DNA of 34,928 bases, taken from IMG/VR virus record IMGVR_UViG_2773857672_000001, positions 1-34,928 of that record; one strand, 5' to 3'. This document shows, piece after piece, positions 1-26,638 of this stretch; within the stretch, counting starts at the first letter, position 1, and every line of letters starts with the position of its first letter. Made by a program: the position numbers and the translations under genes. Under the pieces are notes generated by a model. The model had not been told where the DNA came from. It saw only the letters and a program-made list of their open reading frames with translations, and searched no databases. This DNA comes from a virus.

Positions 1-44
1 TTCCCAAGCTCATGACGAGGGTTCGATTCCCTTCGCCCGCTCCA
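1..44 (+). tRNA. 3' part (anticodon loop to CCA) of tRNA-Gly(CCC); the 5' part lies upstream of the window
   Basis: Anticodon loop TTCCCAA (CCC at 3-5), stem GCTCA, 4-nt variable loop. T-arm GAGGG-TTCGATT-CCCTT, acceptor CGCCCGC, discriminator T, CCA at 42-44. Almost identical to the remembered 3' half of E. coli glyU. Confidence 0.8.
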
Positions 45-48
45 GATT
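1..48. repeat. attL core (direct repeat copy 1)
   Basis: Identical to 34881-34928. The repeat length is truncated by the window edges. Confidence 0.9.
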
Positions 49-112: not shown

Positions 113-203
113 ATCTGTCCAAGTGGCAGAGAGGCTGTCAGAGCGTTAGAGAGTGACGGCGAGAGTCTCGGCCGTGAATCCCTCCCCCCGATAGCGAAGG
201 CAA

Positions 204-525
204 TTTTTCAGGTTGGCGAAAAAAGTAGGTTACTGAGGTTACTTTTTTTTCTAATCACCCTCTATCCCTTGCCAGACAAGGCTTCCAGCGGTTTAGCCAA
301 AAGTTTTTTTCAGGTTATTTGAGGTTATTAGTAACTTTCCAGACAGGTTACTTCCCTCCAGGCTGAAACCCCTGATCTAGAGCGGTTCCAGAAAAAGTAA
401 CCTCGGAAAAAACCTCAAGTAACCTCCCCCAGGTTACCGACGAAACCCAGCAACGACGCGGCCTGGAGCTCTGTCAAGCAACCCCTCTACCCTCGGTAAC
501 CTACTTTTTTCGTCGACCTGAAAAA
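204..525. repeat. 35-bp imperfect inverted repeats enclosing an array of AGGTTAC/GTAACCT heptamers and A/T tracts
   Basis: 204-238 versus the reverse complement of 491-525 gives 31/35 identity (core 217-238 versus 491-512 gives 21/22). Top-strand heptamers at 227, 236, 312, 322, 345, 431. Bottom-strand heptamers at 397, 419, 496. Confidence 0.8.
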
Positions 526-694
526 GTCCTCAAGCACTGATCGGCCTGGGACTGCATTCGGCCGTCTAGAAAAAGGCCGGTGGTGCAGGGATTCGCAGGG
601 TTTCTCAGGCCTGCTAATCCCCGTACAGCCCCAGTAGCGGCGCGGAACGGGCCTAGGTGCAGGGCTGCAGAAAAAGCGACACATTTAGCCCGCG

Positions 695-713
695 GGCGTG
701 GCGGGGGGACGAC
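695..713. other. Candidate cos (cohesive end) sequence
   Basis: GGCGTGGCGGGGGGACGAC. Its first 12 nt match the remembered 186 cos GGCGTGGCGGGGAAAGCAT (P2: GGCGAGGCGGGGAAAGCAC). The position between attP and the portal gene matches phiCTX-type layout. Confidence 0.45.
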
Positions 714-870
714 GGCGCGCGCTGAGACAGAGCCCGTCAGATCTCATCAGGCAAAACAATCGACGCTGGGGTGATTGCGCAAAGCTCAAGTTTCTAGCAA
801 TCTCGCCGTTAGAGGGTTAGCAACAGGCGATTAGACCAGATGTCAAGCCTACCCTGGATCAAAATCAGGC

Positions 871-898
871 TTGACTTCAGATTTGCTAGCCTTAGAAT
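871..898 (+). promoter_or_regulatory. Sigma70-like promoter of the cos-proximal moron
   Basis: TTGACT (871-876), 16-nt spacer, TAGAAT (893-898), about 65 nt upstream of the ATG at 964. An 8-bp inverted repeat TCAAGCCT/AGGCTTGA (843-850 / 867-874) overlaps the -35. Confidence 0.5.
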
Positions 899-963
899 TA
901 CGCGCCCTCAAAATATCGAACGATGTCGTCAGCGTAGCGGGATGGTCATCGGTGAGTAGCTGA

Positions 964-1515
964 ATGATCAAACACGAGCTCGTTGAGGAAATCAGTGAGG
1001 CCAAGGTCAGACCTATCTGCAACGACCTTGACTCTGCTGTAGAAGGTCAAGTGATCGTCATCGAGATGCCGTATAACGGAGGCGGTGAGGTGCAGGCTGC
1101 GATCGACTTGCTCGATAGCATCCTTGAAACGAAGGCTGAGGTTTGGATCGAGATCGATCGCTACGTGGCTAGCGCTGCAGCTTTCATCTACTGTTGGTTT
1201 TTCTTCAAACCGGTAGAGCACGTGCGGGTCCGGACGAAGGGTGAGCAGGCGCTGATCATCTATCACCGCCCTAGGATGTGCATCACTGAACACATAGCCT
1301 TCCTTGATGCTCTAAACCCAGGGGATGCCTACTACGAGTACCTCAAGCATCACACAGACCTGTTCGACAATCTGTTCGATGTGATCTTGAGTGAGTTTGG
1401 CTACCAAGAATCGAAAGGCGCTCCCTTTTCGCACAAAGGAAGCGAGTACACCCACCAGCTTCACCATATGAAGCTGGCCTATTACGCAAACCAGGACTGC
1501 GTTTTTCCTGCGTGA
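964..1515 (+). CDS. ClpP-fold (S14/S49-like) serine protease-like protein, moron gene 1
   Basis: 183-aa ORF with SD GGTGAG 7 nt upstream. IEMPYNGGGEVQAAIDLLDSI...YVASAAAFIYC...LIIYHRPRM aligns with ClpP INSPGGxVxAGxAIYDTM...GQAASMGAFLL...MIHQP, with the Ser and His positions kept. AT-richer than the phage backbone. Confidence 0.5.
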   Translation: MIKHELVEEISEAKVRPICNDLDSAVEGQVIVIEMPYNGGGEVQAAIDLLDSILETKAEVWIEIDRYVASAAAFIYCWFFFKPVEHVRVRTKGEQALIIYHRPRMCITEHIAFLDALNPGDAYYEYLKHHTDLFDNLFDVILSEFGYQESKGAPFSHKGSEYTHQLHHMKLAYYANQDCVFPA

Positions 1516-1526
1516 GGAGGCTGACC

Positions 1527-1685
1527 ATGCTGACGGTAGGACTGAAAGACATTGATACCAGCAAGATCCAGAAGCGCTCCCGAGAGGAGATGGTTGAGCG
1601 CTTCAAGCGATTCAATTGCGACGAGCAAAGGCTGAAGGCCGAATTCCACAAGAAGGGAATTCCAGAGCCTGTCGTTCTCGCCTAA
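1527..1685 (+). CDS. 52-aa highly charged small protein, moron gene 2 (not in the supplied ORF track)
   Basis: ATG at 1527 preceded by GAGGAGG (1514-1520). Translation: MLTVGLKDIDTSKIQKRSREEMVERFKRFNCDEQRLKAEFHKKGIPEPVVLA. TAA at 1683-1685 sits directly before a terminator. Confidence 0.6.
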   Translation: MLTVGLKDIDTSKIQKRSREEMVERFKRFNCDEQRLKAEFHKKGIPEPVVLA

Positions 1686-1694
1686 CAATAAAAA

Positions 1695-1720
1695 AGCCTG
1701 GCTTAGCCAGGCTTTTTTTT
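1695..1720. terminator. Bidirectional rho-independent terminator
   Basis: Stem AGCCTGGC/GCCAGGCT (1695-1702 / 1706-1713), an A-run before and a T8 run after. It lies between convergent genes (1527-1685 plus strand, 1726-2517 minus strand). Confidence 0.8.
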
Positions 1721-1725
1721 GCCTA

Positions 1726-2517
1726 TCAAAACAGTGAAAGCGGCTCCGCCGCTGTATCCCAGCTGAAGATCAGCACTTCCCCAGCCTTGCTGCCCTTGCC
1801 GCCGCCCACCGTGTAGTTGATCTCGGTCGCCTCGATCCGGAACGCCTTGAAGCACTCGCGGATGGCCGGGTGATCGTTGAGGCTGATGATCGCCTTGCCC
1901 TTTAGCTGACCCAGCATCCGGGCCATCTCCTCATACTGCTCGAAGCCGAAGGGCACGCCGTACCCTTCCGTCTCCCAGTAGGGCGGGTCCATGTAGAAGA
2001 GCGTGTGCTCCCGGTCGTATTTGCGCAGGCAGTCCTGCCAGGCCAGGTGCTCGACGTAGACGTCCGACAGCCGCAGGTGTGCAGCCGAAAGGGTCTCCTC
2101 GAGGCGCAGCAGGTTCAGGCCGGGCGGCGTGGTGGTGGCGGTGCCAAAGGTCTGGCCAGCGACCTTGCCGCCGAACGCGGACTGCTGCAGGTAGTAGAAG
2201 CGCGCGGCGCGCTGGATGTCGGTCAGCGTTTCCGGGTTCGTCATCTGCAGCCACTTGAAGACCTGGCGGGAGCTCAGTGCCCATTTGAACTGGCGGACGA
2301 ACTCCTCCAGGTGGTGCTGGACGACCCGGTAGAGATTGACCAGGTCGCCGTTGACATCGTTGAGGACCTCCACCTCAGCGGGTACCGGACGAAGGAAGAA
2401 CAGCGCGGCGCCCCCGGCGAAGGGTTCGACGTAGCAGCTGTGCCTGGGGAAGAGCGGGAAGATTCGGTCGGCGAGGCGGCGCTTGCCGCCCATCCATGGA
2501 ACGATAGGTGCGGACAT
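1726..2517 (-). CDS. dam: N6-adenine DNA methyltransferase (Dam / D12 class), orphan
   Basis: Start MSAPIVPWMGGKRRL with SD AGGAAA. Motifs EPFAGGAALF (AdoMet binding) and DPPY (catalytic). No adjacent restriction gene. The upstream 200 aa of the 463-aa track ORF overlap the portal gene and are an artefact. Confidence 0.85.
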   Translation of the reverse strand: MSAPIVPWMGGKRRLADRIFPLFPRHSCYVEPFAGGAALFFLRPVPAEVEVLNDVNGDLVNLYRVVQHHLEEFVRQFKWALSSRQVFKWLQMTNPETLTDIQRAARFYYLQQSAFGGKVAGQTFGTATTTPPGLNLLRLEETLSAAHLRLSDVYVEHLAWQDCLRKYDREHTLFYMDPPYWETEGYGVPFGFEQYEEMARMLGQLKGKAIISLNDHPAIRECFKAFRIEATEINYTVGGGKGSKAGEVLIFSWDTAAEPLSLF

Positions 2518-2525: not shown

Positions 2526-3542
2526 TTACTGTGGCAGTTGCGTGAGTTCGTATTGCCGGAAGCGGATCACCTCTTCCCCCAGCCATTCGTTGACCTGGGC
2601 CAGGCGAGCCTGCAGCGGCTCCAGCTCGTTGGCGGCGTAGACCAAGGCGGCATCGCGGATCGAGCCGAAGCCGCCGGCGTTCTGGGGCACGATCCCCATC
2701 AGCTGCGGCGGGATCCGCAGGCCGGCGAGCATGTCGTCGCGGGTGATGCCCTTGATCGAGTTGAATTCGTCCTTCGCAGCCACCTCGCTGACCGGGATCA
2801 GCTGGATGCCGTCTTTCTTGCCGCCCGGGGCATAGACGAAGAGGTTGCGGAAGTTGCCCGGCCCCTTGGACTGGCGCAGCGCGGTGCGGACGTTGTCTAT
2901 GTCCTCCTCCTTCTGCGCCGGGTCGGTCATGTAGAAGATGAAGCCGGCGTGACTGCCATTGTTGTAGTACTTCCGGCGGAACAGCGTGGCCGACTCGTTG
3001 AGCAGCGCGGACTGCATGGCCGCGAGCCACTCGGGCATGCCGTAGATCTCCTGGTTGATGTCGGCCTCGCGCAGGTGGCAGATGGTGCCCGGGGTGAATT
3101 CGTGCTCGTCTTGCCACCCGCGCACCTGGAAGAAGCGGTTGTCCTCGCCCCGGCGCATGTATTTGGCCAACGGCGGCTGCAGGCTGACCGGCGTGCCGAG
3201 GCGCGATTGGCGACGCTCCAAGTACGCATTGCCGGACCAGAGCCAGTCCAAGGCGAACTGCTCGAACGCCGCGCGGCTCAGCAGGCGATGCGGGATAAAG
3301 GTGCGGGCCAGCATGTTGCGCTTGAACTTGAGCCCGGAGTCCAGATAGACGCTAGCCCGCGTGGCCTTGGCCAAGCCGTCGAGCGATAGCGGCGGGTCGT
3401 AGTAGCGGCCGTTGAACCAGCATTCCAGGTAATCGAAGACCTCGCGGCCTTCCAGCACTGGCATGGGATCGCCGAAGGTGAAGGCCTCGACCGGGCCGGG
3501 CGCCGCGGTGGCCTGGACGGCCAGGCTGGTGGAATCGCTCAT
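2526..3542 (-). CDS. Q: Portal protein (P2 gpQ homologue)
   Basis: Synteny downstream of terminase large. The ATG overlaps the terminase stop (TGATG). The length of 338 aa is comparable with P2 gpQ. Confidence 0.85.
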   Translation of the reverse strand: MSDSTSLAVQATAAPGPVEAFTFGDPMPVLEGREVFDYLECWFNGRYYDPPLSLDGLAKATRASVYLDSGLKFKRNMLARTFIPHRLLSRAAFEQFALDWLWSGNAYLERRQSRLGTPVSLQPPLAKYMRRGEDNRFFQVRGWQDEHEFTPGTICHLREADINQEIYGMPEWLAAMQSALLNESATLFRRKYYNNGSHAGFIFYMTDPAQKEEDIDNVRTALRQSKGPGNFRNLFVYAPGGKKDGIQLIPVSEVAAKDEFNSIKGITRDDMLAGLRIPPQLMGIVPQNAGGFGSIRDAALVYAANELEPLQARLAQVNEWLGEEVIRFRQYELTQLPQ

Positions 3543-5353
3543 CAGTAGATCTCCATGACGCCGGTATTGCGGGCGGTCTGCCCTTCCAGCGGCTCGTTGT
3601 GCAGGGCATGAAAGAGGGCCCACGCGAGATCCGCGTGGCCGGTGGTGTCGTTGCGTCCGGCCGTGTAGGTGAACTGGCGGCCGCTGGCGGTGGTGGTCTT
3701 GCGAATGGCCATCAGCGACTGGGCGACGTCGGTCCAGCCGGCGTCAAATTCGAGCCGGCCGTTCTTGATTACGTCGTAGGCCTTGAGCACCAGGCGCGTC
3801 TTGACCTCGGGCGAGTAGCTGAAGGTGGTCAGGTTGGGAAAGAACTGGCGCACCAGCTGGGCCACGCCGCTGCCCATGCCGGTGACATCGATGCCGATAT
3901 AGGTCACCCAGTAGCGCTGGCAAACCTGGCGGATCGCCTCGGCCTGGGCGGCGAAGTCCATCCCGCGGAACTGGTGGCGCTCGAGCACGCGAAACTTGCC
4001 GCCCGGTACCAGGGGCGGTGCGACCACCACCAGGCCGGCGGTGTCGCCGGTCTCGGCGGGGTCATAGCCGACCCAGACCGGGCGCTCACCCAGCGGCCGG
4101 GCGGCGAAAGGTTTGTAGTCCTCGGCCCACTCGACCCAGCTGTCCACCATGCAGGGCTGCAGCATGGCGAGCGGGAAGATGCTCGCGCCGTCGTCGACGA
4201 ACTGGCACATGAGCAGGTTCTGGAAGGCCTCGGCCGAGTACTCGAGCTTGAGCTCCTCCAGGTCGAACAGGTCGCAGCCGCGGGACTCAGCGTCCAGGAT
4301 GGTGACGATCTGCCGCCAGATCCGGTCCTCGCAGAGCCGGCCCTCCTGCAGAGCCTCATGGGAGACGTCCAGCTTGAGGTGCTGGGCGACCGGCTTGCCC
4401 TTGTTGAAGCGCTCGCCGGTCCAGAAGGTGTAGGCCTCATGGGCCATGGAGCTGGGCGTCGAGAAGTAGGTCCGGCGGTATTGCTTCTGCATGGCCATGC
4501 CGCTGGCCACCTTGTTCAGCTCCTCGAAGCGGAAGGTCCAGAAGAATTCGTCGAAGTAGAAGTTGCCGTGGTAGCCCTGGGCGGTGCGGGCATTGGTGCC
4601 CAGGAAGTGCAGCTCGGCGCCGTTGGCGAGGACGATCGGATCCCCGGTCACATCGACGCCACAGACCTCCCGGGCGAAGGCCTGGATATACGCCTTGAAG
4701 ATATGCGCCTGGTTCTTGCTGGCCGACAGGAAAATCTGGTTGCGCCCGGTGATCAGCGCATCCAGGAAGGCCTCGCGAGCAAAGTAGTAGGTGGCGCCGA
4801 TCTGCCGGCTCTTGAGGATCGCCCGGGTCCGCTGCTGGCCGGCCCGGTACCAGTCGAGCTGGTAGCCGAAGCACTGGTCGCGGAAGGCGCTCTCAAGGGC
4901 CTCGATCTGCTCCTCGGTGAACTCGTTGCGTGCGGCCTTCTTCTTGGGTCCGGCATTGCGGTTGTCCAGCTTGGGATTGAGCTCGGCCTCGGTACCGCCG
5001 CCCTGGAAGCGCTGGATCCGCGCCTGGCGCTCCAGCTGGCGATGGAGCAGATCGATCTCCTTGAAGTCGCTGCCGGTCTTGCCGTCCTTGAGGATCAGCT
5101 GCACCAGGCGCGCCTCGAGGGCGCCGCCGATCCGCTCCACGTTGTCGGCCCGGTCCCATTCGTCCCTGGCCTTCCAGCTATGGACGGTCTTTTCCTTCTC
5201 CTCGATCGCCTCGGCGATCTCCGTCACCCGCCAGCCCATCCAATACAGATGCTTGGCGCGCCGACGCACGTCCATCAGCAGGTCAGTGGACGGGGCGGCC
5301 GCCGGCGTTTCGGCCGGGCTTGGCAGGGGCGAGGAATCGGATAGGCTTTTCAT
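3542..5353 (-). CDS. P: Terminase large (ATPase) subunit (P2 gpP homologue)
   Basis: 603 aa. ILKSRQIGATYYFAREA matches the remembered gpP Walker-like segment. Divergent from the scaffold gene as in P2. Confidence 0.9.
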   Translation of the reverse strand: MKSLSDSSPLPSPAETPAAAPSTDLLMDVRRRAKHLYWMGWRVTEIAEAIEEKEKTVHSWKARDEWDRADNVERIGGALEARLVQLILKDGKTGSDFKEIDLLHRQLERQARIQRFQGGGTEAELNPKLDNRNAGPKKKAARNEFTEEQIEALESAFRDQCFGYQLDWYRAGQQRTRAILKSRQIGATYYFAREAFLDALITGRNQIFLSASKNQAHIFKAYIQAFAREVCGVDVTGDPIVLANGAELHFLGTNARTAQGYHGNFYFDEFFWTFRFEELNKVASGMAMQKQYRRTYFSTPSSMAHEAYTFWTGERFNKGKPVAQHLKLDVSHEALQEGRLCEDRIWRQIVTILDAESRGCDLFDLEELKLEYSAEAFQNLLMCQFVDDGASIFPLAMLQPCMVDSWVEWAEDYKPFAARPLGERPVWVGYDPAETGDTAGLVVVAPPLVPGGKFRVLERHQFRGMDFAAQAEAIRQVCQRYWVTYIGIDVTGMGSGVAQLVRQFFPNLTTFSYSPEVKTRLVLKAYDVIKNGRLEFDAGWTDVAQSLMAIRKTTTASGRQFTYTAGRNDTTGHADLAWALFHALHNEPLEGQTARNTGVMEIY

Positions 5354-11300: not shown

Positions 11301-11742
11301 CCTCGAGGCGCTGGAGACTTGGCTCTCGCCGCTGCTACAGAAGCTCGACGGTCGCGGCCGGGCCCAACTGGCCCGCAAGGCAGCTCAGCAGCTGCGCCGC
11401 GGTCAGCAGCAGCGGATCCGCGCCCAGGTGAACCCGGATGGCTCACCGTTCGAGGCGCGCAAGCCGCGGGATCTGCGTGGCAAGAAGGGACGGATCAAGC
11501 GGCGCATGTTCGAGAAGCTAAAGATGGCGCGCTACCTCAAGGCTAAGGGCACGCCGCAACAGGCGGTGATCGGCTTCGCCGGCCGCGTCTCCCGCATCGC
11601 CCGCGTCCACCAGTACGGCCTGAAAGACCGCGCCGAACGCGGAGCCCCCGAGGTCCGCTACCCCCGCCGCGAGCTGATCGGCCTTACTGAAAACGATTTG
11701 AAACTGCTGAGAGATGATCTGCTAGATGGATTGATCTCTTGA
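11293..11742 (+). CDS. S: Virion morphogenesis / tail completion protein (P2 gpS homologue)
   Basis: GTG start overlapping the end of gpR. Typical N-terminus LE.L..WL.PL and NPDGSPF. The last ~17 codons lie in AT-rich DNA. Confidence 0.78.
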   Translation: MADLEALETWLSPLLQKLDGRGRAQLARKAAQQLRRGQQQRIRAQVNPDGSPFEARKPRDLRGKKGRIKRRMFEKLKMARYLKAKGTPQQAVIGFAGRVSRIARVHQYGLKDRAERGAPEVRYPRRELIGLTENDLKLLRDDLLDGLIS

Positions 11743-12480
11743 GTACAACTCGTCAGGAGGTGTCAGCACCTTCCTGACGTATTGCCCATCTCCATCAAGA
11801 AACTTAGAAAGCCGGGCAGCTTCCACTAACTTTTTACCCGTTGGAGTTATAGCAACAATGCCCTCATATGTTCCTCTACCCACCAACAGAGACATTCCGC
11901 GTAGCTCGCCAATCTGCACAGCTATAACTCGGTCTCTCTCTATTATGTGGCGGAGATCATTGTCCCGCCAAACCTCGCCAAGCTCATCAAACGCTGCAAG
12001 AATCAGGAGATGCCGATAGGTAAGCCTGTCAATGCAAGATAGCATCCAAGACGCATCATCTGCGGCTATTGAGGTGTCAAAGGCTACAGACGCAAGAAGC
12101 TCACCTAACACCAGGACCTTTTGCTCTTCATATTGAAGCTTCGCTTTAGTAAGCACGCCATCAAGTATTGTTTGGGCTTTAGGTATTGACCCAGTCGGCG
12201 TCCGGAAGAAATCATCGTCCCTTAGCTCCTCGCCACTCGCGATTCTTTCTTTTATTCGCGCTGCACCTACCGCTACCGCACTAATACTTCTGACTTCTTC
12301 TCGGTTTGACATCGTCCGCTGCACGAAATCGACCAACGCCTGAGTTATAGCGACCCCAGCCTGAGCCAAAACACCTCCGCTCACATCTCCAACCGCTGTG
12401 GCAAGCATCGGCCCTGCTCCAGCGCCGGCAAGTTCGGCGCCACGCCTTATGATTTCTGGCAGTTTGCTCTTCGCATCCAT
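11722..12480 (-). CDS. Hypothetical 252-aa protein, antisense low-GC moron at the S/V junction
   Basis: ATG at 12480 with SD GAGGAA. N-terminal Gly/Ala-rich hydrophobic segment (GAELAGAGAGPMLATAVGDVSGGVLAQAGVAIT). C-terminal part resembles a winged helix (LTYRHLLILAAF...IGELRGMSLLVGRG..IVAITPTGKKLVE). The 3' end overlaps gpS by 21 bp. Confidence 0.7.
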   Translation of the reverse strand: MDAKSKLPEIIRRGAELAGAGAGPMLATAVGDVSGGVLAQAGVAITQALVDFVQRTMSNREEVRSISAVAVGAARIKERIASGEELRDDDFFRTPTGSIPKAQTILDGVLTKAKLQYEEQKVLVLGELLASVAFDTSIAADDASWMLSCIDRLTYRHLLILAAFDELGEVWRDNDLRHIIERDRVIAVQIGELRGMSLLVGRGTYEGIVAITPTGKKLVEAARLSKFLDGDGQYVRKVLTPPDELYSRDQSI

Positions 12481-12512
12481 GACTTTTCCTCTGGTTAGCT
12501 GGCACACACATT

Positions 12513-12531
12513 TGTAGCAGGCCTAGCTACA
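12513..12531. promoter_or_regulatory. Late-promoter dyad upstream of gpV (TTGTAGC-N7-GCTACAA)
   Basis: TGTAGCAGGCCTAGCTACA, with (CG)5 at 12551-12560. The dyad centre is 57 nt upstream of the V ATG. Confidence 0.6.
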
Positions 12532-12578
12532 ACTCTAGCTGGCTGCACCACGCGCGCGCGGTCGCCATTCTCCGCGGC

Positions 12579-13136
12579 ATGACCGATATCGCCGCCCTCT
12601 CCCGCCTCATCGAGAACCTGATCCGCCTCGGCACCATTGCCGAGGTCGACCATGGCAGTCTCCCAGACAAGCGCCCTGCCCGCGTTCGGGTTCAGAGCGG
12701 CGCCTTGCTGACCGGCTGGCTGCCCTGGACCGCCCTGCGCGCCGGCACCACGCGCGACTGGGATCCGCCCACCGTGGGCGAGCAGGTCCTGGTCCTGAGC
12801 CCCAGCGGCCAGACCGCCCAGGGCATCGCCATCGGCGGCCTGTTCAGCGCCCTCATTCCTGCCAACGGCGATCGCGCCGGCCTGCACCGCCGCACCTACC
12901 CGGACGGCGCCGTCGTCGAGTACGACAGCGAAGCCCACCAGCTGCTGGCCACCCTGCCCGCCGGCGGCCGGGTCGAAATCGTCGCCCCGGGCGGTTTTAA
13001 GCTGCAGGGCGACGTGGACATAGACGGCCTGGTGACCGTGACCCGCGACGTCGTCGCCGCCGGCATCAGCCTGGTTAAGCACCCGCACGGGGGCGTCCAG
13101 GTTGGCAACGCCCAGACCGGAGCGCCCACACCATGA
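12579..13136 (+). CDS. V: Baseplate assembly protein / spike (P2 gpV homologue)
   Basis: N-terminus L..L.NLIR.GTI.EVD and RVRVQSG..LT.WLPW parallel P2 gpV. Confidence 0.88.
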   Translation: MTDIAALSRLIENLIRLGTIAEVDHGSLPDKRPARVRVQSGALLTGWLPWTALRAGTTRDWDPPTVGEQVLVLSPSGQTAQGIAIGGLFSALIPANGDRAGLHRRTYPDGAVVEYDSEAHQLLATLPAGGRVEIVAPGGFKLQGDVDIDGLVTVTRDVVAAGISLVKHPHGGVQVGNAQTGAPTP

Positions 13137-13480
13137 TGAGCCGCGCAACGGGCCTGGCCGTCACCGAGCTCGAAGAGCTCCAGCAGTCGGTCGGCGACAT
13201 CCTCACCACGCCGATCGGCACCCGCGTGATGCGCCGCCCCTATGGCTGCGACCTGTTCAGCCTGATCGATCAACCGTTCAACGACGCCACCGCGCTGCAG
13301 GCCAAGGCCGTGGCCGTGATCGCCCTCATGCGCTGGGAGCCGCGGCTCAACCTCACCCGCATCGCGCTCACCCTGGGCGACGCCCCGGGCCAGGCCTTCG
13401 TTGACCTGGAGGGCTACAGCACCGTCACCAACGCCGCCGTCAGCCTGCGCGCCCCCCTGGTCTTTGGAGGCCTCGCATGA
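13133..13480 (+). CDS. W: Baseplate wedge protein (P2 gpW / gp25-like)
   Basis: 115 aa, synteny, and the GPW_gp25-type motif I...L.TP.G.R.M.P.YG. Confidence 0.82.
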   Translation: MMSRATGLAVTELEELQQSVGDILTTPIGTRVMRRPYGCDLFSLIDQPFNDATALQAKAVAVIALMRWEPRLNLTRIALTLGDAPGQAFVDLEGYSTVTNAAVSLRAPLVFGGLA

Positions 13481-14379
13481 TCGACCTTTCCCTCCTGCCG
13501 TTGCCCGACGTCGTCGAGTCCCTGGACTTCGAGACCCTGCTGGCCGCCCGCAAGGCCCGCCTGGTCAGCCTGTACCCGGCTGCCGAGCAGGCCAATATCG
13601 CCGCGCGCCTGGAGCTGGAGTCGCAGCCGCTGAACAAGCTGCTCCAGGAGAACACCTACCGCGAGCTCATCCTCCGCCAGCGCATCAACGATGGCGCCAA
13701 GGCGGTGATGCTGGCCTACGCCACCGGTGCGGACCTGGAGAACGTCGCTGCCTGGTACGGCGTCCAGCGCCTGCTGGTGACGCCGGCCGACAACAGCGTC
13801 ACCCCGGCCATCCCCGCCGTCTATGAGACGGACGAGCGCCTGCGGTACCGGACCCAGCTCGCCCTGGAAGGCTTCACCACCGCCGGACCGCGTAACGCCT
13901 ACCGCTACCACGCGCTGTCCGCCTCGGCCAAGGTCAAGGACGTAGCCATCCTGCGTCCCATCCAGGGCACCGTGCGGGTCGTGGTCCTGAGCACTGAGGG
14001 CGACGGCACGCCAAGCGCCACGCTGCTGGCCACCGTGGCCGCGGCGCTCAACGACGAAGACGTCCGGCCGCTTTGCGACACCGTCGAAGTGGTCGCCGCT
14101 GAGATCCTGCCCTACCAAGTGGCAGCCACCCTGGTCTTCTACAGCGGACCGGACATGGCGGTCGTGGAGGCCGCCGCCCTGGCCAAGGCGAAGGCCTACG
14201 TAGCCGAGCGCCATGCCATGGGCCAGGACGTCTCCCGCTCGGGCCTGTTCGCCGCGCTGCATCAGAGCGGCGTGCAGAACGTGATCCTGGCCAGCCCGGC
14301 GACCGACCTCGAGGTCGCCCAGGACCAAGCCGCCTACTGCACCGGCATCACCCTGAGCCAGGGCGGCACCGATGAGTAG
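13477..14379 (+). CDS. J: Baseplate protein J
   Basis: 300 aa, synteny V-W-J-I, coupled starts. Confidence 0.82.
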   Translation: MIDLSLLPLPDVVESLDFETLLAARKARLVSLYPAAEQANIAARLELESQPLNKLLQENTYRELILRQRINDGAKAVMLAYATGADLENVAAWYGVQRLLVTPADNSVTPAIPAVYETDERLRYRTQLALEGFTTAGPRNAYRYHALSASAKVKDVAILRPIQGTVRVVVLSTEGDGTPSATLLATVAAALNDEDVRPLCDTVEVVAAEILPYQVAATLVFYSGPDMAVVEAAALAKAKAYVAERHAMGQDVSRSGLFAALHQSGVQNVILASPATDLEVAQDQAAYCTGITLSQGGTDE

Positions 14380-14938
14380 CGTCCTGCTGCCACCCACCAG
14401 CCTGCCCATGGAGCGTGCGATCGCCGCCAGCGGCGCCAGCATCGATGCCCTGCCGGTCCCGCTCCGTGATCTGTGGAATCCCTGGAAGTGCCCGGCCGCG
14501 GTGCTGCCCTGGCTGGCCTGGGCGGTGTCGGTCGATGACTGGGACGCCAACTGGGGCGAGGACGCCAAGCGCCAGATCATCGCCGATTCCGTCACTGTCC
14601 ACCGGCACAAGGGCACCCGCGGCGCCGTCCGCCGCGCCCTGACCAACCTGCTCGGCTCCGAAGCTTTCACCCTCATCGAGGGCGCCACTGGTGGCCTCTA
14701 TGACGGCAGCCGCTCCTACAACGGCGACAACTTCTACGGCCACGACGAGCACTGGGCCAAGTACAGCGTGTACGTCACCCAGCCCATTAGCGTGGCCCAG
14801 GCCGCGCGGATCCGCCAAACCCTCGCCGACGTCGCCCCGGCGCGCTGCGAGCTCATTGCCCTCAACTTCACCGCTGCGCTCAACGATCACAGCGGCACCT
14901 TCCGTTACGACGGGACCTTCACCTACGGAGTCGCTTGA
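14372..14938 (+). CDS. I: Tail protein I
   Basis: 188 aa. LLPP..., LWNP..CP...LPWLAWA.SVD.W and HR.KGT are typical of gpI. Confidence 0.82.
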   Translation: MSSVLLPPTSLPMERAIAASGASIDALPVPLRDLWNPWKCPAAVLPWLAWAVSVDDWDANWGEDAKRQIIADSVTVHRHKGTRGAVRRALTNLLGSEAFTLIEGATGGLYDGSRSYNGDNFYGHDEHWAKYSVYVTQPISVAQAARIRQTLADVAPARCELIALNFTAALNDHSGTFRYDGTFTYGVA

Positions 14939-17241
14939 TGACGAACCTCACCGAAAAAGAGCAGTGGGAGGATGGCGTCTACCAGATCGAGAAAACCGAT
15001 CCGGTAGTCGGCGGCCCCGAAGGGCTCTCCAACCGCCAGGGCCTGCAGCTGGCCAACCGCACCCGCTGGCTCAAAGCTCGTATTGACGGCCTTCTGGACG
15101 GTACCCGCTCGGCCGCACTGGCGATCAAGCTGGCCACTGCTCGCGCGGTCAAGCTCACCGGCGACGCCACCGCTACCGGCACCTTCGACGGCAGTGCTGA
15201 TCTGTCCCTGACCGTGAACCTGGCTGACACCGGCGTCGCTGCCGGGACCTATGGCGGCGTCACGCTCGACAAGAAAGGCCGCGCCACTGCGGCCACCACC
15301 TACTTGCCGATCGCCAACGGCGGTACTGGCAATGGCTCCGGCCAGGCAGTTAGTGCGGCCAAGCTGGCCACCGCCCGGACCATCAACGGCGTTCCGTTCG
15401 ACGGCACGGCCAACATCGCCATCACCGACGACAGCAAGGCGCCACTCAACTCGCCGGTGCTGCTCGGCGACCCACGCGCGCCGACGCCGGCCGCCGGCGA
15501 CAATGACACCAGCATCGCCACCACCGCCTTCGTCCAGGCTGCGATCGCCGCTCTGGTCAATGGCTCGCCCGAAGCGCTCAACCAGCTCAACGAGCTGGCC
15601 GCCGCCCTGGGCAACAATCCGAACTACGCCACCGATATGGCCACGGCGCTGGGGCTCAAGGCCAACAGCGAGTCGCCGACGCTAACGGGCCTGCCCAAGG
15701 CGCCCACCGCGGGGATCGCCACCAGCACCACGCAAATCGCCACGACCGCGTTTGTCCAGGCCGTGATGGCGGCCTATGGCTTGGCAGGCTACGCACCGGT
15801 ACAGAACAACACCCTTAACCTCAACGATGCGCCCTTCGGCGGTCTGGTGCGCTGCGAAGGCGCAGCGTCCAACGCGGCCACCTACAACTGGCCCGTAACG
15901 GGGGCAAGCGACACCACCCAGGTTGCTTTCGAGGTCTTCACCCACGGCCTGGCTGGGCCCTATGCGCGCCTGACCCAGTTCGCTACGGAGATCTTCGGTA
16001 GCGCGGGTGGCCGCGGTCGGACGTTCGTTCGAGTGCGACACGACACCACCTGGTACCCGTGGCGGGAATTCGCCTTCGCCGACCAGTTGGCCACCGTAGG
16101 CAAGACCGGAAAGTTCAGCGACCTGGCCGCCGAGATCTATCACTGGATGTCCGGCAAATCCGCCGCTAACGGCTGGAAAAACGTCTACCTGCAGAACCAG
16201 GAGCCCACCGGCAACGTATCCCTGGAGATGGCCAACAGCGGCGGCTATACCGTGCTGTCCTACCAGGGCGTGCAGGACGGCGCCGGTGGCTGGGGCGCGC
16301 GGTTCTACTACACGCCGCCAGGCGATACCGCCAAGGACCGCCGCATCGGCTGGCTCGGCATTTCTACCGCGGGCGAGGTCCAGCTCGGCAATGCCTCCCT
16401 GCCAGCAGGACGTACCGGCCAGATCCTCACCAGTGAGGGCGACCAGAGCATCAACGGCAACAAGCGCTTCTTCGGCGAGGTGCAGACAACGTCCTGGAGC
16501 AGCTACCGCCTCATCGGGGGCGACTTCGGTAGCTTCTGGCGCAACGACGGCGCCGGGCTCTACCTGCTGTTCACTGCCAAGGGCAGCCCCTACGGCGACC
16601 TGAACAGCCTTCGCCCACTGACCTTCAACCTCACCACCGGCAAGGGCTACATGCCCCACGGCGTGGAAGTCCAAACCGTGGGCGCAGGTGATCGCAGCGT
16701 GAACGCGGCCTCCACGGCCTACGTCCTCAACGCCATCGGCGACCGTGCCGGCGCCATCGACTTCTTCGCCATGAGCAGCGCCCCAGCGGGCTACCTCAAG
16801 GCCAACGGCGCCGCCGTCAGCCGGACGACTTACGCCACCCTGTTCGCGGCAATCGGCACCACCTTCGGCGCCGGTGATGGCTCCACCACCTTCAACCTGC
16901 CGGACATCCGCGGCGAGTTCCTGCGCGGCTGGGATGACGGTCGCGGCGTGGATAGTGGACGGGCCTTCGCAAGCGGCCAAGCTAGCCAGAACCTGCTGCA
17001 CGACCACCCTGCCTCCACCGGCACGGCAGGCGCGCACAACCACACCATGACCTGGAACAACGACGGCGCCCAGCTGGGCAACAACGACAACTCCATCTTC
17101 GGCGACGAAAACCGCTATGGCACGGTCACCATGACCACCAGCACCGCGGGCTCGCACACCCACTCCGTCACCATCGGCACATCCGGCGGCAATGAAGCCC
17201 GTCCGCGCAACCTGGCCCTGCTGGCCTGCATCAAGTACTGA
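14935..17241 (+). CDS. H: Tail fibre protein (gpH-like) with C-terminal tail-collar domain
   Basis: 768 aa. Repeated TTAFVQAA motif. C-terminal GYLKANGAAVSRTTYATLFAAIGTTFGAGDGSTTFNLPDIRGEFLRGW (collar) and three HxH motifs (HDH, HNH, HTH). Confidence 0.85.
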   Translation: MMTNLTEKEQWEDGVYQIEKTDPVVGGPEGLSNRQGLQLANRTRWLKARIDGLLDGTRSAALAIKLATARAVKLTGDATATGTFDGSADLSLTVNLADTGVAAGTYGGVTLDKKGRATAATTYLPIANGGTGNGSGQAVSAAKLATARTINGVPFDGTANIAITDDSKAPLNSPVLLGDPRAPTPAAGDNDTSIATTAFVQAAIAALVNGSPEALNQLNELAAALGNNPNYATDMATALGLKANSESPTLTGLPKAPTAGIATSTTQIATTAFVQAVMAAYGLAGYAPVQNNTLNLNDAPFGGLVRCEGAASNAATYNWPVTGASDTTQVAFEVFTHGLAGPYARLTQFATEIFGSAGGRGRTFVRVRHDTTWYPWREFAFADQLATVGKTGKFSDLAAEIYHWMSGKSAANGWKNVYLQNQEPTGNVSLEMANSGGYTVLSYQGVQDGAGGWGARFYYTPPGDTAKDRRIGWLGISTAGEVQLGNASLPAGRTGQILTSEGDQSINGNKRFFGEVQTTSWSSYRLIGGDFGSFWRNDGAGLYLLFTAKGSPYGDLNSLRPLTFNLTTGKGYMPHGVEVQTVGAGDRSVNAASTAYVLNAIGDRAGAIDFFAMSSAPAGYLKANGAAVSRTTYATLFAAIGTTFGAGDGSTTFNLPDIRGEFLRGWDDGRGVDSGRAFASGQASQNLLHDHPASTGTAGAHNHTMTWNNDGAQLGNNDNSIFGDENRYGTVTMTTSTAGSHTHSVTIGTSGGNEARPRNLALLACIKY

Positions 17242-25277: not shown

Positions 25278-25477
25278 TCAATTTGGCGGTTCGGCCCGGG
25301 CCCACCTCTCGGGCCTGGAGCCGAGCGTAGGACGTCGGCGAAGCGCAAGATGCTGGACTGCTCTCGCTCCTGCAGGGACCGAAAGCTATCTAGAAGCTGC
25401 TTTTCGCGGCCGCTGACCACCATAAGACTACCTGAACCTCGACTCACCATAGCGCCCTGCCAGACCATCTGCTCCAT
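25268..25477 (-). CDS. 69-aa hypothetical protein under an SOS box (candidate Tum-like antirepressor)
   Basis: ATG at 25477 preceded by GGGAGGG 8 nt upstream. A LexA-box lies 21-36 nt upstream. Its 3' end converges on and overlaps gpD by 10 nt. Confidence 0.5.
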   Translation of the reverse strand: MEQMVWQGAMVSRGSGSLMVVSGREKQLLDSFRSLQEREQSSILRFADVLRSAPGPRGGPGPNRQIDQA

Positions 25478-25497
25478 CCAATAGACCCTCCCAATTG

Positions 25498-25513
25498 CTG
25501 TATGTGCATACAG
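25498..25513. promoter_or_regulatory. LexA (SOS) box CTGTATGTGCATACAG
   Basis: Fits CTGT-N8-ACAG with conserved TAT/ATA flanks. On the minus strand it reads TACTGTATGCACATACAGCA. An adjacent 6-2-6 inverted repeat GTGATC-CC-GATCAC lies at 25520-25533. Confidence 0.7.
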
Positions 25514-25594
25514 TACATTGTGATCCCGATCACGCCAATGGCGAAAGCCGAACGGTTAGCTATGTCCGGTGCGGCGGGTGATCTGGCTGGCCTA

Positions 25595-25617
25595 GATGGC
25601 GCATGAGCAGCGCCATC
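25595..25617 (-). terminator. GC-rich stem-loop downstream of the secreted-protein gene (possible terminator, no U-tract)
   Basis: GATGGCGC / GCGCCATC 8-bp stem with a 7-nt loop. Confidence 0.3.
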
Positions 25618-25643
25618 CGTCTAGCGACCAACGGTACTAACGG

Positions 25644-26204
25644 TCATTTAGAGCTTAGGCTATCAACAAGCTTGTTCAGTTGCGGCTCTTTGTAATAAAC
25701 ATTTTCAAAACTCTTCGACCAGTGATCTAACTGGATACTTCCAGATTTTTCTGGCGAAGTAAGAGCGGAAAAGGAATCTACGGAAATATGTCCATTGATA
25801 ACCGACAGTGCTTTTTCGCGAGTCGCTTTAACCTCAACCTTCGGCGACTTCAGATAAACAACCTCTGACTTACCTGGCGTAAACTGAAGCGGAAACGCCG
25901 TTACGGTTATGCTATTTGCATTCGTATGAATGAAGGTACGATATACCGCGTACACCGCCGCACGCTTAACTTCATAGGCAGCATTATCCGCTGGCTCGTT
26001 CGGGAAGACCTTCGGCGAGATCTGCACGGTGAGCGGATCCTCCTTGAGCACACGGAACGTGCCGTTCTCCTCGGAGAAGTCGCCCAGATCCTCAATCATC
26101 TCTCTTACACCAGAGTATTGAATAGGCTCTAGATCATTTGCATAAGAAATTGACGCAAATAAAAAGAGCGCCGGAAGGGCAGCAACCTTTCCAACAGATA
26201 TCAT
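25644..26204 (-). CDS. Secreted (Sec signal peptide) 186-aa protein co-transcribed with the repressor
   Basis: MISVGKVAALPALFLFASISYA|ND signal peptide with no lipobox Cys. SD AAGGA. Only 15 nt separate it from the repressor stop. Strongly AT-rich relative to the phage. Confidence 0.7.
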   Translation of the reverse strand: MISVGKVAALPALFLFASISYANDLEPIQYSGVREMIEDLGDFSEENGTFRVLKEDPLTVQISPKVFPNEPADNAAYEVKRAAVYAVYRTFIHTNANSITVTAFPLQFTPGKSEVVYLKSPKVEVKATREKALSVINGHISVDSFSALTSPEKSGSIQLDHWSKSFENVYYKEPQLNKLVDSLSSK

Positions 26205-26219
26205 AACTATCCTTAATGT

Positions 26220-26555
26220 TTATTCAGAAGCTTGCGAAAGAGCCCAAACGAGACGTTCAATAGATGCCCGATCAACTTCGGACATTTTACGCATTGCCTG
26301 TATGACTTTTGTTTCCGAAGAGTTGAGGTCAGACACTGTTTGCGGCTTTCGCTCGCCATACAGTAGATACCAGATATCTACGCCAATCTTTTCGATAGCG
26401 GCCAAATACGCAACGTCGGGGCTGCGCTCATCCTTCTCGTAAAACCATTGAGTGTTTTTGGCAACACCACCCAATGCGGCGAAGTCGGTCTGGTTGTATC
26501 CCAACCGCTTTCGCTCCTCTTGGAGCCGAGACCCAATTCCCACTTTTGTCACCAT
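26220..26555 (-). CDS. Immunity repressor, XRE/Cro-CI-type HTH, no peptidase domain
   Basis: IGSRLQEERKRLGYNQTDFAALGGVAKNTQWFYEKDERSP is a classic HTH_3 pattern. 111 aa from the ATG at 26555. Divergent from the Ner/Cro-like gene. Confidence 0.75.
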   Translation of the reverse strand: MVTKVGIGSRLQEERKRLGYNQTDFAALGGVAKNTQWFYEKDERSPDVAYLAAIEKIGVDIWYLLYGERKPQTVSDLNSSETKVIQAMRKMSEVDRASIERLVWALSQASE

Positions 26556-26633: not shown

Positions 26634-26638
26634 GAACT

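What the first reader, a model, noticed from the sequence alone, without database searches (positions are those of the whole stretch)
775..1725. Self-contained low-GC moron beside cos: ClpP-fold protease-like gene plus 52-aa partner
Seen in sequence: the segment is visibly AT-richer than the flanking >60% GC phage DNA. It carries its own sigma70-like promoter (TTGACT-N16-TAGAAT, 871-898). It holds two SD-preceded genes 11 nt apart (964-1515 and 1527-1685) and ends in a bidirectional hairpin terminator (1695-1720). Gene 1 aligns by eye with the ClpP catalytic core. The Ser sits in VASAAAF and the His in YHRP, at ClpP-like spacing; the Asp is uncertain. P2-type phages do not need a separate protease, because gpO matures itself. 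Established knowledge: the cos-proximal position next to the portal operon corresponds to the old/tin slot of P2. That slot is a documented hotspot for anti-phage cargo. Inference: this is a lysogen-expressed accessory system. It could be a protease-based defence or toxin-antitoxin-like pair. I cannot match it to any named defence system.
Basis: partly seen in the sequence, partly recalled or inferred. Interest (0 to 1): 0.78.

Follow-up and report, generated by a model that had tools for sequence, protein, structure and literature searches.

The report
Mobile ClpP-like protease plus small partner
A Pseudomonas prophage carries, in the cargo slot where phage phiCTX carries its cytotoxin gene, an imported two-gene cassette encoding a stripped-down ClpP-type protease and a 52-residue partner; the same pair also occurs in other prophages, Vibrio integron cassettes and conjugative plasmids, which suggests an undescribed toxin-antitoxin-like or anti-phage module whose function is untested.

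Summary
Window 871-1722 is a low-GC insert (GC 0.51 vs 0.645; GC3 0.65-0.68 vs 0.87-0.91). It has a sigma70-like promoter, two tightly coupled genes (964-1515 and 1527-1685) and a symmetric hairpin terminator.

Gene A has a ClpP fold (AF2 pLDDT 97; Foldseek to ClpP, E 2e-7). Ser70 and His101 align with ClpP Ser97 and His122. Asp178 fits the ClpP catalytic-Asp strand. A lacks ClpP's N-terminal region and its C-terminal helix. It passes no curated family threshold and matches no PADLOC model.

The small partner sits downstream of A in every locus I examined. These include P2-like and lambdoid prophages, one Vibrio integron cassette holding only these two genes, and IncF plasmids.

The slot is cos (694-714) to portal, the same slot as ctx in phiCTX. 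A Dam-like methylase lies between the cassette and the portal gene. The phage has its own intact gpO protease.

Function is inferred, not shown. The most likely reading (about 0.45) is a TA-like or abortive-infection module built on a partner-controlled protease.

The parts
694..714 (+). cos site. It is the left boundary of the cargo slot and is context, not part of the cassette.
   Evidence: GGGCGTGGCGGGGGGACGACG matches 19 of 21 bases of the annotated cosL of phiCTX (AGGCGTGGCGGGGGGACGACT). The flanking sequence is also similar.
825..892 (.). Imperfect inverted repeat that overlaps the -35 hexamer. It could be an operator.
   Evidence: The arms are 825-850 and 867-892, 26 nt each and 73% complementary. 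The repeat is not conserved in other contexts, so its significance is unknown.
871..898 (+). Sigma70-like promoter, TTGACT-N16-TAGAAT.
   Evidence: It matches 10 of 12 consensus positions. The -10 hexamer and the downstream CGCGCC are conserved in L002 and L016. Activity has not been tested.
951..956 (+). Shine-Dalgarno-like GGTGAG for gene A.
   Evidence: Read directly from the sequence. It lies 7 nt before the ATG at 964.
964..1515 (+). Gene A: a 183-aa minimal ClpP-fold serine protease. The oxyanion-hole glycines are Gly40-Gly41 and the triad is Ser70-His101-Asp178.
   Evidence: The AF2 model has pLDDT 97 and pTM 0.90. Foldseek best matches are ClpP structures at E 2e-7, probability 1.0, TM 0.55-0.63 over the full length. 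Viral ClpP proteins also match. hhalign pairs S70 with S97 and H101 with H122.
1514..1520 (+). Shine-Dalgarno GAGGAGG for gene B. It overlaps the stop codon of gene A.
   Evidence: Read directly from the sequence. The tight junction between A and B is conserved across loci.
1527..1685 (+). Gene B: a 52-aa basic (pI 9.4), hydrophilic partner. Its C-terminal tail follows the pattern G-hydrophobic-x-x-P-x-hydrophobic-x-A.
   Evidence: A small ORF was found downstream of A in every locus inspected. The core-family partners are alignable with Gly44 and Pro48 invariant and Ala52 nearly so. The B profile finds 49 clusters, all annotated only as hypothetical.
1686..1721 (.). Symmetric (bidirectional) intrinsic terminator. 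It ends both the cassette and the convergent P-Q-methylase operon.
   Evidence: Free energy is -20 kcal/mol, z = -4.2. The stem is kept by compensatory changes in four Pseudomonas contexts, and homology stops just after the T-run.
1726..2517 (-). D12-class (Dam-like) DNA methyltransferase. It is a backbone gene on the right flank and not part of the cassette.
   Evidence: Pfam MethyltransfD12 at E 2.5e-24 and PADLOC MTase_II at E 7e-103. Its GC is 0.64 and GC3 0.87, like the backbone. A methylase gene sits beside Q in phage Smp131 as well.

Best explanation
SHOWN (confidence above 0.9)
- Window 871-1722 is an imported, self-contained two-gene moron.
- It sits in the cos-to-portal cargo slot of a phiCTX-like Pseudomonas prophage.
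- Gene A is a divergent, minimal ClpP-superfamily serine protease with the triad Ser70, His101 and Asp178 (the Asp assigned by motif alignment).
- Compared with ClpP, A lacks about 26 N-terminal residues. In ClpP those residues form the axial loops and the docking surface for the unfoldase.
- A also lacks ClpP's last helix and strand.
- Gene B is a 52-aa basic partner, tightly coupled to A, with a conserved hydrophobic, proline-containing C-terminal tail.
- The pair travels as one unit between prophage moron slots, a Vibrio chromosomal integron cassette and IncF plasmids.

INFERRED (confidence about 0.45)
- The pair works as a toxin-antitoxin-like or abortive-infection-type module.
- It is expressed from its own promoter in the lysogen.
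- The protease acts without an ATPase and is held in check by B. B's C-terminal tail may occupy the substrate groove as a pseudo-substrate.
- If B is lost or displaced, for example during infection by another phage or after loss of the element, the protease cleaves host or phage proteins. That would stop growth or phage development.
- Which of the two proteins is the harmful one is not settled.
For: Fold and catalytic residues:
- Searches give the ClpP fold.
- Searches give the invariant residues and their alignment to ClpP.
- A profile of the family pulls in proteins of which 33 of 76 independently match Pfam CLP_protease.
- PDB ClpP chains match the profile at E about 1e-3.

Foreign origin and moron anatomy:
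- Composition.
- Promoter and terminator.
- Cassettes in other hosts also have a promoter-like site upstream and a terminator immediately downstream.

Obligate pairing:
- A small ORF lies downstream of A in every locus I inspected. The gap is at most 11 nt, or the genes overlap by 4 nt, in all but two loci (a 30-nt gap in L013, a 26-nt overlap in L001).

TA-like distribution:
- In Vibrio vulnificus, A and B alone fill one cassette between two attC-like repeats, next to a ParE/Phd cassette.
- On IncF conjugative plasmids the pair lies a few kb from the replication genes and among IS elements.
- It sits at a prophage end beside the integrase.
- It sits between the Q antiterminator and the holin in many P. 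aeruginosa prophages. The index lists that B variant in 843 blocks of the collection.
- It sits between the tape-measure and minor-tail genes in an Enterobacter prophage.

Slot:
- phiCTX carries ctx at the same place.
- The slot holds different genes in related phages.
- The cos-proximal gpA-gpQ region is a documented defence hotspot (PMC9122126).
- Integron cassettes are documented stores of anti-phage systems, according to a review that cites Darracq 2025 and Kieffer 2025.
Against: - There are no functional data of any kind.
- PADLOC has no hit.
- Known defence genes are mostly absent from the neighbourhoods. The only one found is an OLD/GajA-like ATPase near the Enterobacter copy.
- B has no recognisable DNA-binding or antitoxin domain.
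- In several phages the pair lies in the same direction as late or early operons, so it could equally act during the phage's own lytic cycle.
- The promoter is one consensus match with no statistical weight on its own.
- The small ORFs downstream of distant family members are not demonstrably homologous to B.
Confidence: 0.45

Rival explanations
1. Protease-substrate (maturation or neutralisation) pair. A cleaves B. In one version this releases an active peptide from a precursor. In the other, B is a small basic toxin and A, the upstream gene, is an enzymatic antitoxin that keeps destroying it, as in type VII-like TA logic.
For: - The catalytic residues are invariant, so catalysis is needed.
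- B's most conserved part is a short G-x-x-x-P-x-hydrophobic-x-A tail that could be a cleavage or docking site. Similar proline-hydrophobic motifs recur in the partners of distant members.
- The gene order, enzyme first and small protein second, fits the canonical antitoxin-then-toxin order. That order is my own knowledge of the field.
- Precedents from established knowledge: NfeD proteases cleave the stomatin encoded in the same operon, and prohead proteases cleave the neighbouring scaffold protein.
Against: - B has no signal peptide, no hydrophobic segment and no similarity to a known toxin or peptide precursor.
- No cleavage has been shown.
- The distribution data do not separate this reading from the main one.
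Confidence: 0.2
2. A factor that benefits the phage during lytic growth, through counter-defence or host takeover. A degrades host proteins such as defence proteins or regulators, and B targets or times that activity.
For: - In P. aeruginosa lambdoid prophages the pair always lies between the Q antiterminator and the holin.
- In Enterobacter it lies inside the tail operon.
- In metagenomic contig L018 it lies in a same-strand block with a PIF1-type helicase and many small genes.
- All three are positions that would be transcribed during lytic growth.
Against: - The pair also occurs as a Vibrio chromosomal integron cassette, on conjugative plasmids and as a chromosomal islet in Sodalis. A lytic-cycle role makes little sense there.
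- The cassettes keep their own promoter-like site and terminator. That is the usual mark of lysogen-expressed morons.
Confidence: 0.15
3. Modulator of the host Clp system. A joins or caps host ClpP rings, or competes for substrates, and so changes host proteolysis, as inactive ClpR-type subunits do in other organisms.
For: - A has a ClpP head-domain fold with a handle helix.
- Pseudomonas is known to have more than one ClpP paralogue. This is established knowledge and was not tested here.
Against: - A keeps a full catalytic triad, so it is not a ClpR-like inactive subunit.
- It lacks the N-terminal region that gates the pore and contacts the unfoldase.
- Sequence identity to ClpP is only 12-18%, so conserved ring interfaces are unlikely.
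- The same module works in hosts as different as Vibrio, Enterobacter, Klebsiella and Pseudomonas.
- This reading does not explain the obligatory partner B.
Confidence: 0.07
4. Head-maturation (prohead) protease of the prophage, or a decaying remnant of one.
For: The nearest curated sequence families are phage ClpP-related head-maturation proteases. The hits are weak: PHROG 53 and 2976 at E about 1e-3, and NCBIfam NF045542 at E 1e-3 to 1e-5.
Against: - The NF045542 scores are far below threshold (18.8-25.6 bits against a cut-off of 120).
- The phage has a complete gpO scaffold-protease.
- The gene lies outside the head module, has foreign composition, and is absent from related phages at this slot.
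- It occurs in integron cassettes and plasmids that have no capsid genes.
- Strong conservation across genera argues against decay.
Confidence: 0.02

Closest known systems
ClpP (MEROPS S14, Pfam PF00574 CLP_protease)
   Same: - Same alpha/beta fold over the whole length (Foldseek probability 1.0).
- The GG oxyanion-hole motif, the nucleophile Ser in a small-residue helix start (SAAA against ASMG), and the His in a hydrophobic-H-x-P strand are all at equivalent positions.
- An Asp sits in the D-x-hydrophobic-hydrophobic strand.
   Different: - No hit to PF00574, even at E up to 1.
- Only 12-18% identity to ClpP structures.
- Lacks about 26 N-terminal residues (the axial loops and helix A) and ends 5 residues after the catalytic Asp.
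- Has the family-specific motifs Y-H-R/K-P-R and Y-Y-x-N-x-D.
- No AAA+ partner gene is nearby.
- Always paired with a small basic protein and carried on mobile elements.
ClpP-related phage head-maturation proteases (NCBIfam NF045542; PHROG 53 and 2976)
   Same: Both are phage-borne ClpP-fold proteases. These are the best, though weak, curated sequence hits. They are a plausible evolutionary source of gene A.
   Different: - Scores are far below the curated cut-offs.
- The gene is not in a head module.
- The host phage uses gpO.
- The pair also occurs where there are no capsid genes.
The ctx cytotoxin moron of phage phiCTX
   Same: The position and layout are the same: cos, then its own promoter, then the cargo, then a terminator, then the convergent portal gene Q. 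The cos sequence is nearly identical.
   Different: - The cargo is unrelated. ctx is a pore-forming toxin, according to the record's annotation and established knowledge.
- Here a Dam-like methylase also lies between the cargo and Q.
P2 old/tin and the cos-proximal gpA-gpQ defence hotspot (Rousset et al. 2022, PMC9122126)
   Same: The cassette lies in the variable, cos-adjacent interval between the replication gene and the portal gene of a P2-family phage.
   Different: - It is on the portal side of cos, whereas old/tin are on the other side of cos in P2 (recalled from the P2 map, not checked here).
- In this phage attP and the integrase gene also lie in that interval, as in phiCTX.
- There is no similarity to Old or Tin.
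Type II / type VII toxin-antitoxin modules and protease-based defence effectors (for example Lit, and the proteases linked to CBASS or CRISPR systems)
   Same: - A compact, tightly coupled two-gene unit with its own promoter and terminator.
- It is found on plasmids near the replication genes, in prophages and in chromosomal integron cassettes beside ParE/Phd.
   Different: - No homology to any catalogued toxin, antitoxin or defence protein.
- As far as my literature searches show, no ClpP-fold protein has been reported in either role.
- Toxicity and neutralisation are untested.

Membership tests
ClpP / peptidase S14 (Pfam PF00574) | ClpP alpha/beta fold | tested here: met
   The AF2 model has pLDDT 97. 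Foldseek best matches are ClpP crystal structures at E 2e-7, TM 0.55-0.63 and about 185 aligned columns. The first, lower-confidence model gave the same answer.
ClpP / peptidase S14 (Pfam PF00574) | Catalytic Ser and His at the homologous positions | tested here: met
   hhalign pairs S70 with S97 and H101 with H122 of E. coli ClpP. Both residues are invariant in 76 sequences.
ClpP / peptidase S14 (Pfam PF00574) | Catalytic Asp that completes the triad | tested here: inconclusive
   D178 is at least 90% conserved. It falls in the column of the D-x-[FWV]-[LIF] strand of CLP_protease-positive relatives. I could not measure the geometry in the model.
ClpP / peptidase S14 (Pfam PF00574) | Score above the curated family threshold | tested here: not met
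   There is no PF00574 hit, even at E up to 1. Only profile-level and fold-level similarity is seen.
ClpP / peptidase S14 (Pfam PF00574) | N-terminal axial loops and helix A, used for gating and for docking ClpX/ClpA | tested here: not met
   Query residue 6 aligns with residue 32 of full-length ClpP chains, and residue 22 aligns with residue 50. About 26 N-terminal residues therefore have no counterpart.
ClpP / peptidase S14 (Pfam PF00574) | Heptameric or tetradecameric chamber | not testable with these tools
   No multimer prediction or model coordinates were available.
ClpP-related phage head-maturation protease (NCBIfam NF045542) | Score above the cut-off, and location in the head-assembly module | tested here: not met
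   The score is 18.8 bits against a cut-off of 120. The gene lies between cos and a methylase gene. The phage has gpO (Phage_GPO, E 1.4e-105).
SppA / NfeD (S49-type, Ser-Lys dyad) | Ser-Lys dyad, and a family score above threshold | tested here: not met
   NfeD1b_N scores 14 bits against a cut-off of 40. The invariant residues are Ser and His, and no Lys is invariant.
Phage moron | Own promoter and terminator, foreign base composition, and absence from related phages at the same site | tested here: met
   The slot holds ctx in phiCTX and other genes in Dobby, Sirocco, D14A and Smp131. The promoter is a sequence match only, and transcription was not tested.
Known anti-phage defence systems (PADLOC-DB v2.0.0) | A match to any catalogued defence protein model | tested here: not met
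   Neither A nor B matches any family at E up to 1. Models added after 2023, such as current DefenseFinder models, were not available.
Toxin-antitoxin module | A compact co-directional gene pair with coupled translation, found on plasmids, prophages and integrons | tested here: met
   The junctions are 5 to 11 nt gaps or 4-nt overlaps in 12 of the 14 loci tabulated; L013 has a 30-nt gap and L001 a 26-nt overlap. The distribution is shown.
Toxin-antitoxin module | One product is toxic and the other neutralises it | not testable with these tools
   This needs cloning and expression experiments.
P2-family cos-proximal hotspot (gpA-gpQ interval) | Variable cargo next to cos, between the replication gene and the portal gene | tested here: met
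   cos is at 694-714. The portal gene is 2526-3623 and the Toprim replication gene is 28734-31451. The definition of the hotspot comes from PMC9122126.

The most novel reading that the evidence does not exclude
The A-B pair is the founding example of an unrecognised family of mobile toxin-antitoxin or abortive-infection modules. Their effector is an ATPase-independent, minimal ClpP-fold protease controlled by a peptide of about 50-70 residues.

The protease may have been exapted from ClpP-related phage head-maturation proteases. If so, it might recognise and cut the capsid or scaffold proteins of invading phages.

The family moves between prophage moron slots, chromosomal integron cassettes and IncF plasmids across Pseudomonas, Vibrio and Enterobacterales.
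Probability: 0.3. Interest if true: 0.8.

Novelty: new variant of a known kind. Interest (0 to 1): 0.58.

Why it matters
If the pair is a defence or addiction module, it would add a new kind of effector to bacterial immunity: a ClpP-fold protease that needs no unfoldase.

It would also give a small, easily handled system (183 + 52 aa) for studying how a self-compartmentalising protease fold was turned into a regulated stand-alone enzyme.

The P. aeruginosa variant is common in clinical-type genomes. The index lists it in 843 blocks of the collection, always between the Q antiterminator and the holin. Any effect on phage susceptibility would therefore bear on phage therapy.

The result also shows that the ctx slot of phiCTX-like phages is a general cargo slot.

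Even if the function proves different, the family is a well-defined and currently unannotated branch of the ClpP superfamily.

Tried and rejected
- Single-sequence searches for gene A gave nothing above threshold. This covers Pfam, PADLOC, PHROGs, NCBIfam and PDB phmmer. The one PDB phmmer hit was a designed TPR repeat protein, which I rejected as a low-complexity coincidence.
- A profile search of the PDB was topped by Staphylococcus protein A repeats. I rejected these because the score is the sum of several weak repeat matches to one short segment. The ClpP chains below them are the meaningful hits.
- The first AF2 model, built from 10 sequences, was weak in its C-terminal third (pLDDT 68). 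I replaced it with a 38-sequence model (pLDDT 97).
With the narrow alignment it found only 3 genomes and 2 viral contigs. That undercounts the family, because the B profile found 49 clusters.
- ARAGORN finds no tRNA, because the window starts inside the tRNA-like att repeat.
- The only Rfam hit is a sub-threshold Thr_leader match lying over the terminator. I rejected it as spurious.
- The antisense ORF at 946-1293 and other long overlapping ORFs are by-products of high GC content.
- PADLOC scans of neighbouring genes in three loci found almost no known defence genes. Guilt by association with defence islands is therefore not available as evidence.
- Five literature searches for ClpP-like defence, TA or moron proteins found nothing relevant.
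- I considered whether the methylase belongs to the cassette and rejected it. Its composition matches the backbone, and Smp131 also has a methylase gene beside Q.
Full report
**1. What the window is**

The 34.9-kb window is one complete prophage.
- A 48-bp direct repeat bounds it at 1-48 and 34881-34928. The repeat looks like the T-arm and acceptor end of a tRNA. ARAGORN calls no tRNA because only the 3' part is present.
- The gene content is that of a P2-family phage. It includes a portal gene, a large terminase, the gpO scaffold-protease, a P2-type major capsid protein, a Toprim replication protein and an integrase.
- The closest sequenced phages are phiCTX and other Citexvirus members, at about 82% DNA identity over the terminase gene. 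Stenotrophomonas phage Smp131 is also related.
- Window 694-714 (GGGCGTGGCGGGGGGACGACG) matches 19 of 21 bases of the annotated cohesive end of phiCTX, with similar flanks. The order is therefore: integrase, att, a repeat-rich arm at about 200-540, cos, the cassette, a methylase gene, portal Q, terminase P.

**2. Checking the observation**

- *Composition.* The cassette has GC 0.511 against 0.645 for the prophage. GC3 is 0.65-0.68 against 0.87-0.91 in backbone genes.
- *Promoter.* TTGACT-N16-TAGAAT at 871-898 is the only promoter-like match in 500-2700. One match is about what shuffled sequence gives, so it carries little weight alone. However, the -10 hexamer and the following CGCGCC are conserved in two unrelated genomic contexts.
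- *Genes.* Gene A is 964-1515 and gene B is 1527-1685. They are 11 nt apart, and a GAGGAGG site overlaps the stop codon of A.
- *Terminator.* The hairpin at 1686-1721 has a free energy of -20 kcal/mol (z = -4.2), with an A-run on one side and a T-run on the other. It can therefore terminate both the cassette and the convergent P-Q-methylase operon.
- *One correction.* A D12-class methylase gene (1726-2517, minus strand) with backbone composition lies between the cassette and the portal gene.

**3. Gene A is a ClpP-fold protease**

Single-sequence searches give only hints:
- PHROG "ATP-dependent protease" and "head maturation protease" at E about 1e-3.
- NfeD1b_N at E 0.04.
- NCBIfam ClpP-related head-maturation protease at 18.8 bits against a cut-off of 120.

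A profile of ten close homologues, run against 1.84 billion representative proteins, found 93 proteins at E up to 1e-3. Of the 76 I aligned, 33 independently match Pfam CLP_protease, 14 match NfeD1b_N and 12 match SDH_protease.

With a 38-sequence alignment AlphaFold gave a confident model (pLDDT 97, pTM 0.90).
- Its best PDB matches are all ClpP structures (E 2e-7, probability 1.0, TM 0.55-0.63, full length).
- Its best viral matches are phage ClpP proteins.

The catalytic residues map as follows.
- hhalign against E. coli ClpP pairs Ser70 with Ser97 and His101 with His122.
- Gly40, Gly41, Ser70 and His101 are invariant across all 76 sequences, and Asp178 is at least 90% conserved.
- In that alignment Asp178 falls in the D-x-hydrophobic-hydrophobic strand that carries the catalytic Asp in CLP_protease-positive relatives. 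It rests on motif alignment, not on measured geometry.

The protein is a trimmed ClpP.
- Its first strand corresponds to about residue 27-32 of ClpP, so the axial loops and helix A are missing.
- It stops five residues after Asp178, so the last helix and strand are missing.
- It has its own motifs, Y-H-R/K-P-R and Y-Y-x-N-x-D.
- No Lys is invariant, which argues against an S49-type Ser-Lys dyad.

**4. Gene B is a real, obligate partner**

A small ORF follows A in every locus I inspected. These loci are:
- four Pseudomonas contexts;
- P. baetica and Pseudomonas sp. LRF_L74;
- an IMG/VR contig;
- P. aeruginosa lambdoid prophages;
- Enterobacter hormaechei;
- Vibrio vulnificus and V. campbellii;
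- Pantoea and Klebsiella plasmids;
- Sodalis;
- three metagenomic contigs.

In one Vibrio record B was simply not called by the annotator, but it is present.

The core-family partners can be aligned. Gly44 and Pro48 are invariant and the C-terminal Ala is nearly so, giving a tail of the form G-hydrophobic-x-x-P-x-hydrophobic-x-A. They are basic (pI 9-10) and hydrophilic, and they have no domain hit.

Partners of distant members are similar in size (59-73 aa) and coupling (4-nt overlaps or a 5-nt gap), but they are not demonstrably homologous to B.

A B profile finds 49 clusters, all labelled hypothetical. One P. aeruginosa variant is listed in 843 blocks of the collection.

**5. The pair is a mobile unit**

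- *Pseudomonas boundaries.* In four Pseudomonas contexts, homology begins near the -10 hexamer. It ends just after the terminator T-run, and the stem is maintained by compensatory changes.
- *Vibrio integron.* In V. vulnificus the locus is an array of about 14 attC-like repeats. A and B alone occupy one cassette, between the repeats at 4230-4366 and 5211-5347, next to a ParE/Phd cassette.
- *Prophages.*
  - The pair lies beside the integrase at a prophage end.
  - It lies at another prophage edge.
  - It lies between the tape-measure and minor-tail genes.
  - It always lies between the Q antiterminator and the holin in P. aeruginosa lambdoid prophages that have different packaging modules.
- *Plasmids.* On IncF conjugative plasmids it lies a few kb from the replication genes, among IS elements.
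- *Moron anatomy elsewhere.* The P. aeruginosa and Enterobacter copies also have a promoter-like site upstream and a strong terminator immediately downstream.

**6. The slot**

- phiCTX carries its ctx toxin gene in exactly this place: cosL, its own -35 and -10, ctx, two terminators, then the convergent Q gene.
- Related phages carry other genes there.
- Rousset et al. 2022 define the P2 hotspot as the cos-proximal region between gpA and gpQ, where P2 carries old and tin (PMC9122126).
The precise counterpart is the ctx slot on the portal side of cos.

**7. Mechanism**

What is shown is a catalytically equipped, minimal ClpP-fold protease with an obligate small partner, moving as a unit among mobile elements.

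What is inferred is that the pair is a toxin-antitoxin-like or abortive-infection-type module.
- It occurs in integron cassettes beside a classical TA pair, a few kb from plasmid replication genes, and in prophage moron slots and ends.
- That distribution is typical of addiction and defence cargo. Both the P2 hotspot and integron cassettes are documented stores of anti-phage systems.
- The absence of the unfoldase-docking region suggests the enzyme acts without ClpX or ClpA.
- The conserved tail of B suggests it docks in the substrate groove as an inhibitor or as a substrate.
- I put this reading at about 0.45.

The rivals are:
- a protease-substrate pair, including the version in which B is the toxin and A destroys it (0.2);
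- a factor that benefits the phage in the lytic cycle, suggested by co-directional placement within phage operons (0.15);
- a modulator of host ClpP (0.07);
- a head-maturation protease (0.02), which is effectively excluded by the intact gpO and by the contexts without capsid genes.

**8. Novelty and verdict**

- No curated family, PADLOC model or paper in the searchable library describes this pair.
- It is a new, distinct branch of a known superfamily in a known kind of genomic setting, so I rate it a new variant of a known kind.
- The structural and genomic observations are solid. The function is a reasoned guess that simple cloning experiments could settle.
- Interest is moderate to high (0.58). 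It is a clean, testable candidate, but uncharacterised cargo in phage hotspots is common and nothing here overturns expectations.

Noticed in passing
window 1-48 and 34881-34928: An identical 48-bp direct repeat sits at the two ends of the window. It contains a tRNA-like T-arm and acceptor 3' end (GGTTCGATTCCCTTCGCCCGCTCCA). The window is therefore one whole prophage from attL to attR, integrated into the 3' end of a tRNA gene that lies just upstream of the window.
   Followed up: partly
window 200-540: An AT-rich region (GC 0.46) lies between att and cos. It is dense in GGTTAC / AAAAAGTAACCT-type repeats and includes a 38-nt inverted repeat (204-241 and 488-525, 89% complementary). It occupies the same position as the annotated R-repeat and IHF-site region beside attP in phiCTX, which uses GGTAAT-type repeats. 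It probably holds integrase arm sites or IHF sites.
   Followed up: partly
window 1726-2517 (minus strand): A D12-class (Dam-like) orphan DNA methyltransferase is the last gene of the P-Q operon. Its composition matches the backbone. Smp131 has a methylase gene in the same position, but phiCTX, Dobby and Sirocco do not.
   Followed up: partly
window about 25300-26700 (ORFs 25644-26204 and 26220-26615, minus strand): This is a second low-GC island and the lowest in the prophage (GC 0.47). It encodes a 131-aa XRE-type HTH protein (Pfam HTH_3, E 5e-5), probably the repressor. Downstream is a 186-aa protein with no Pfam or PADLOC hit, which could be another lysogen-expressed cargo gene.
   Followed up: partly
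L029-L033 and L001 (P. aeruginosa lambdoid prophages): A 214-aa relative of A overlaps a 57-aa relative of B. The pair always lies between the Q antiterminator and the holin, in prophages with two different packaging modules. That is the position occupied by stx in Shiga-toxin phages. The index lists this B variant in 843 blocks of the collection. In GenBank record OQ658367.1 the A gene is not annotated at all.
   Followed up: partly
L006 11576-13429: An OLD/GajA/AriA-like AAA ATPase (617 aa) lies at the end of the Enterobacter prophage, about 3 kb from its A-B cassette. In the sister locus L005 the gene is truncated to 404 aa.
   Followed up: no
window 825-892: An imperfect 26-nt inverted repeat brackets the -35 hexamer of the cassette promoter. 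It is not conserved in other contexts, so it may be an operator specific to this copy or a chance match.
   Followed up: partly
L002 (Pseudomonas metagenome contig), 3830-4338 and 11440-16475: Here the cassette sits in an element that has AlpA-like and PyocinActivator-like regulators and two very large unannotated ORFs (1105 and 572 aa) with no PADLOC hit. It may be a satellite or an island rather than a full prophage.
   Followed up: no
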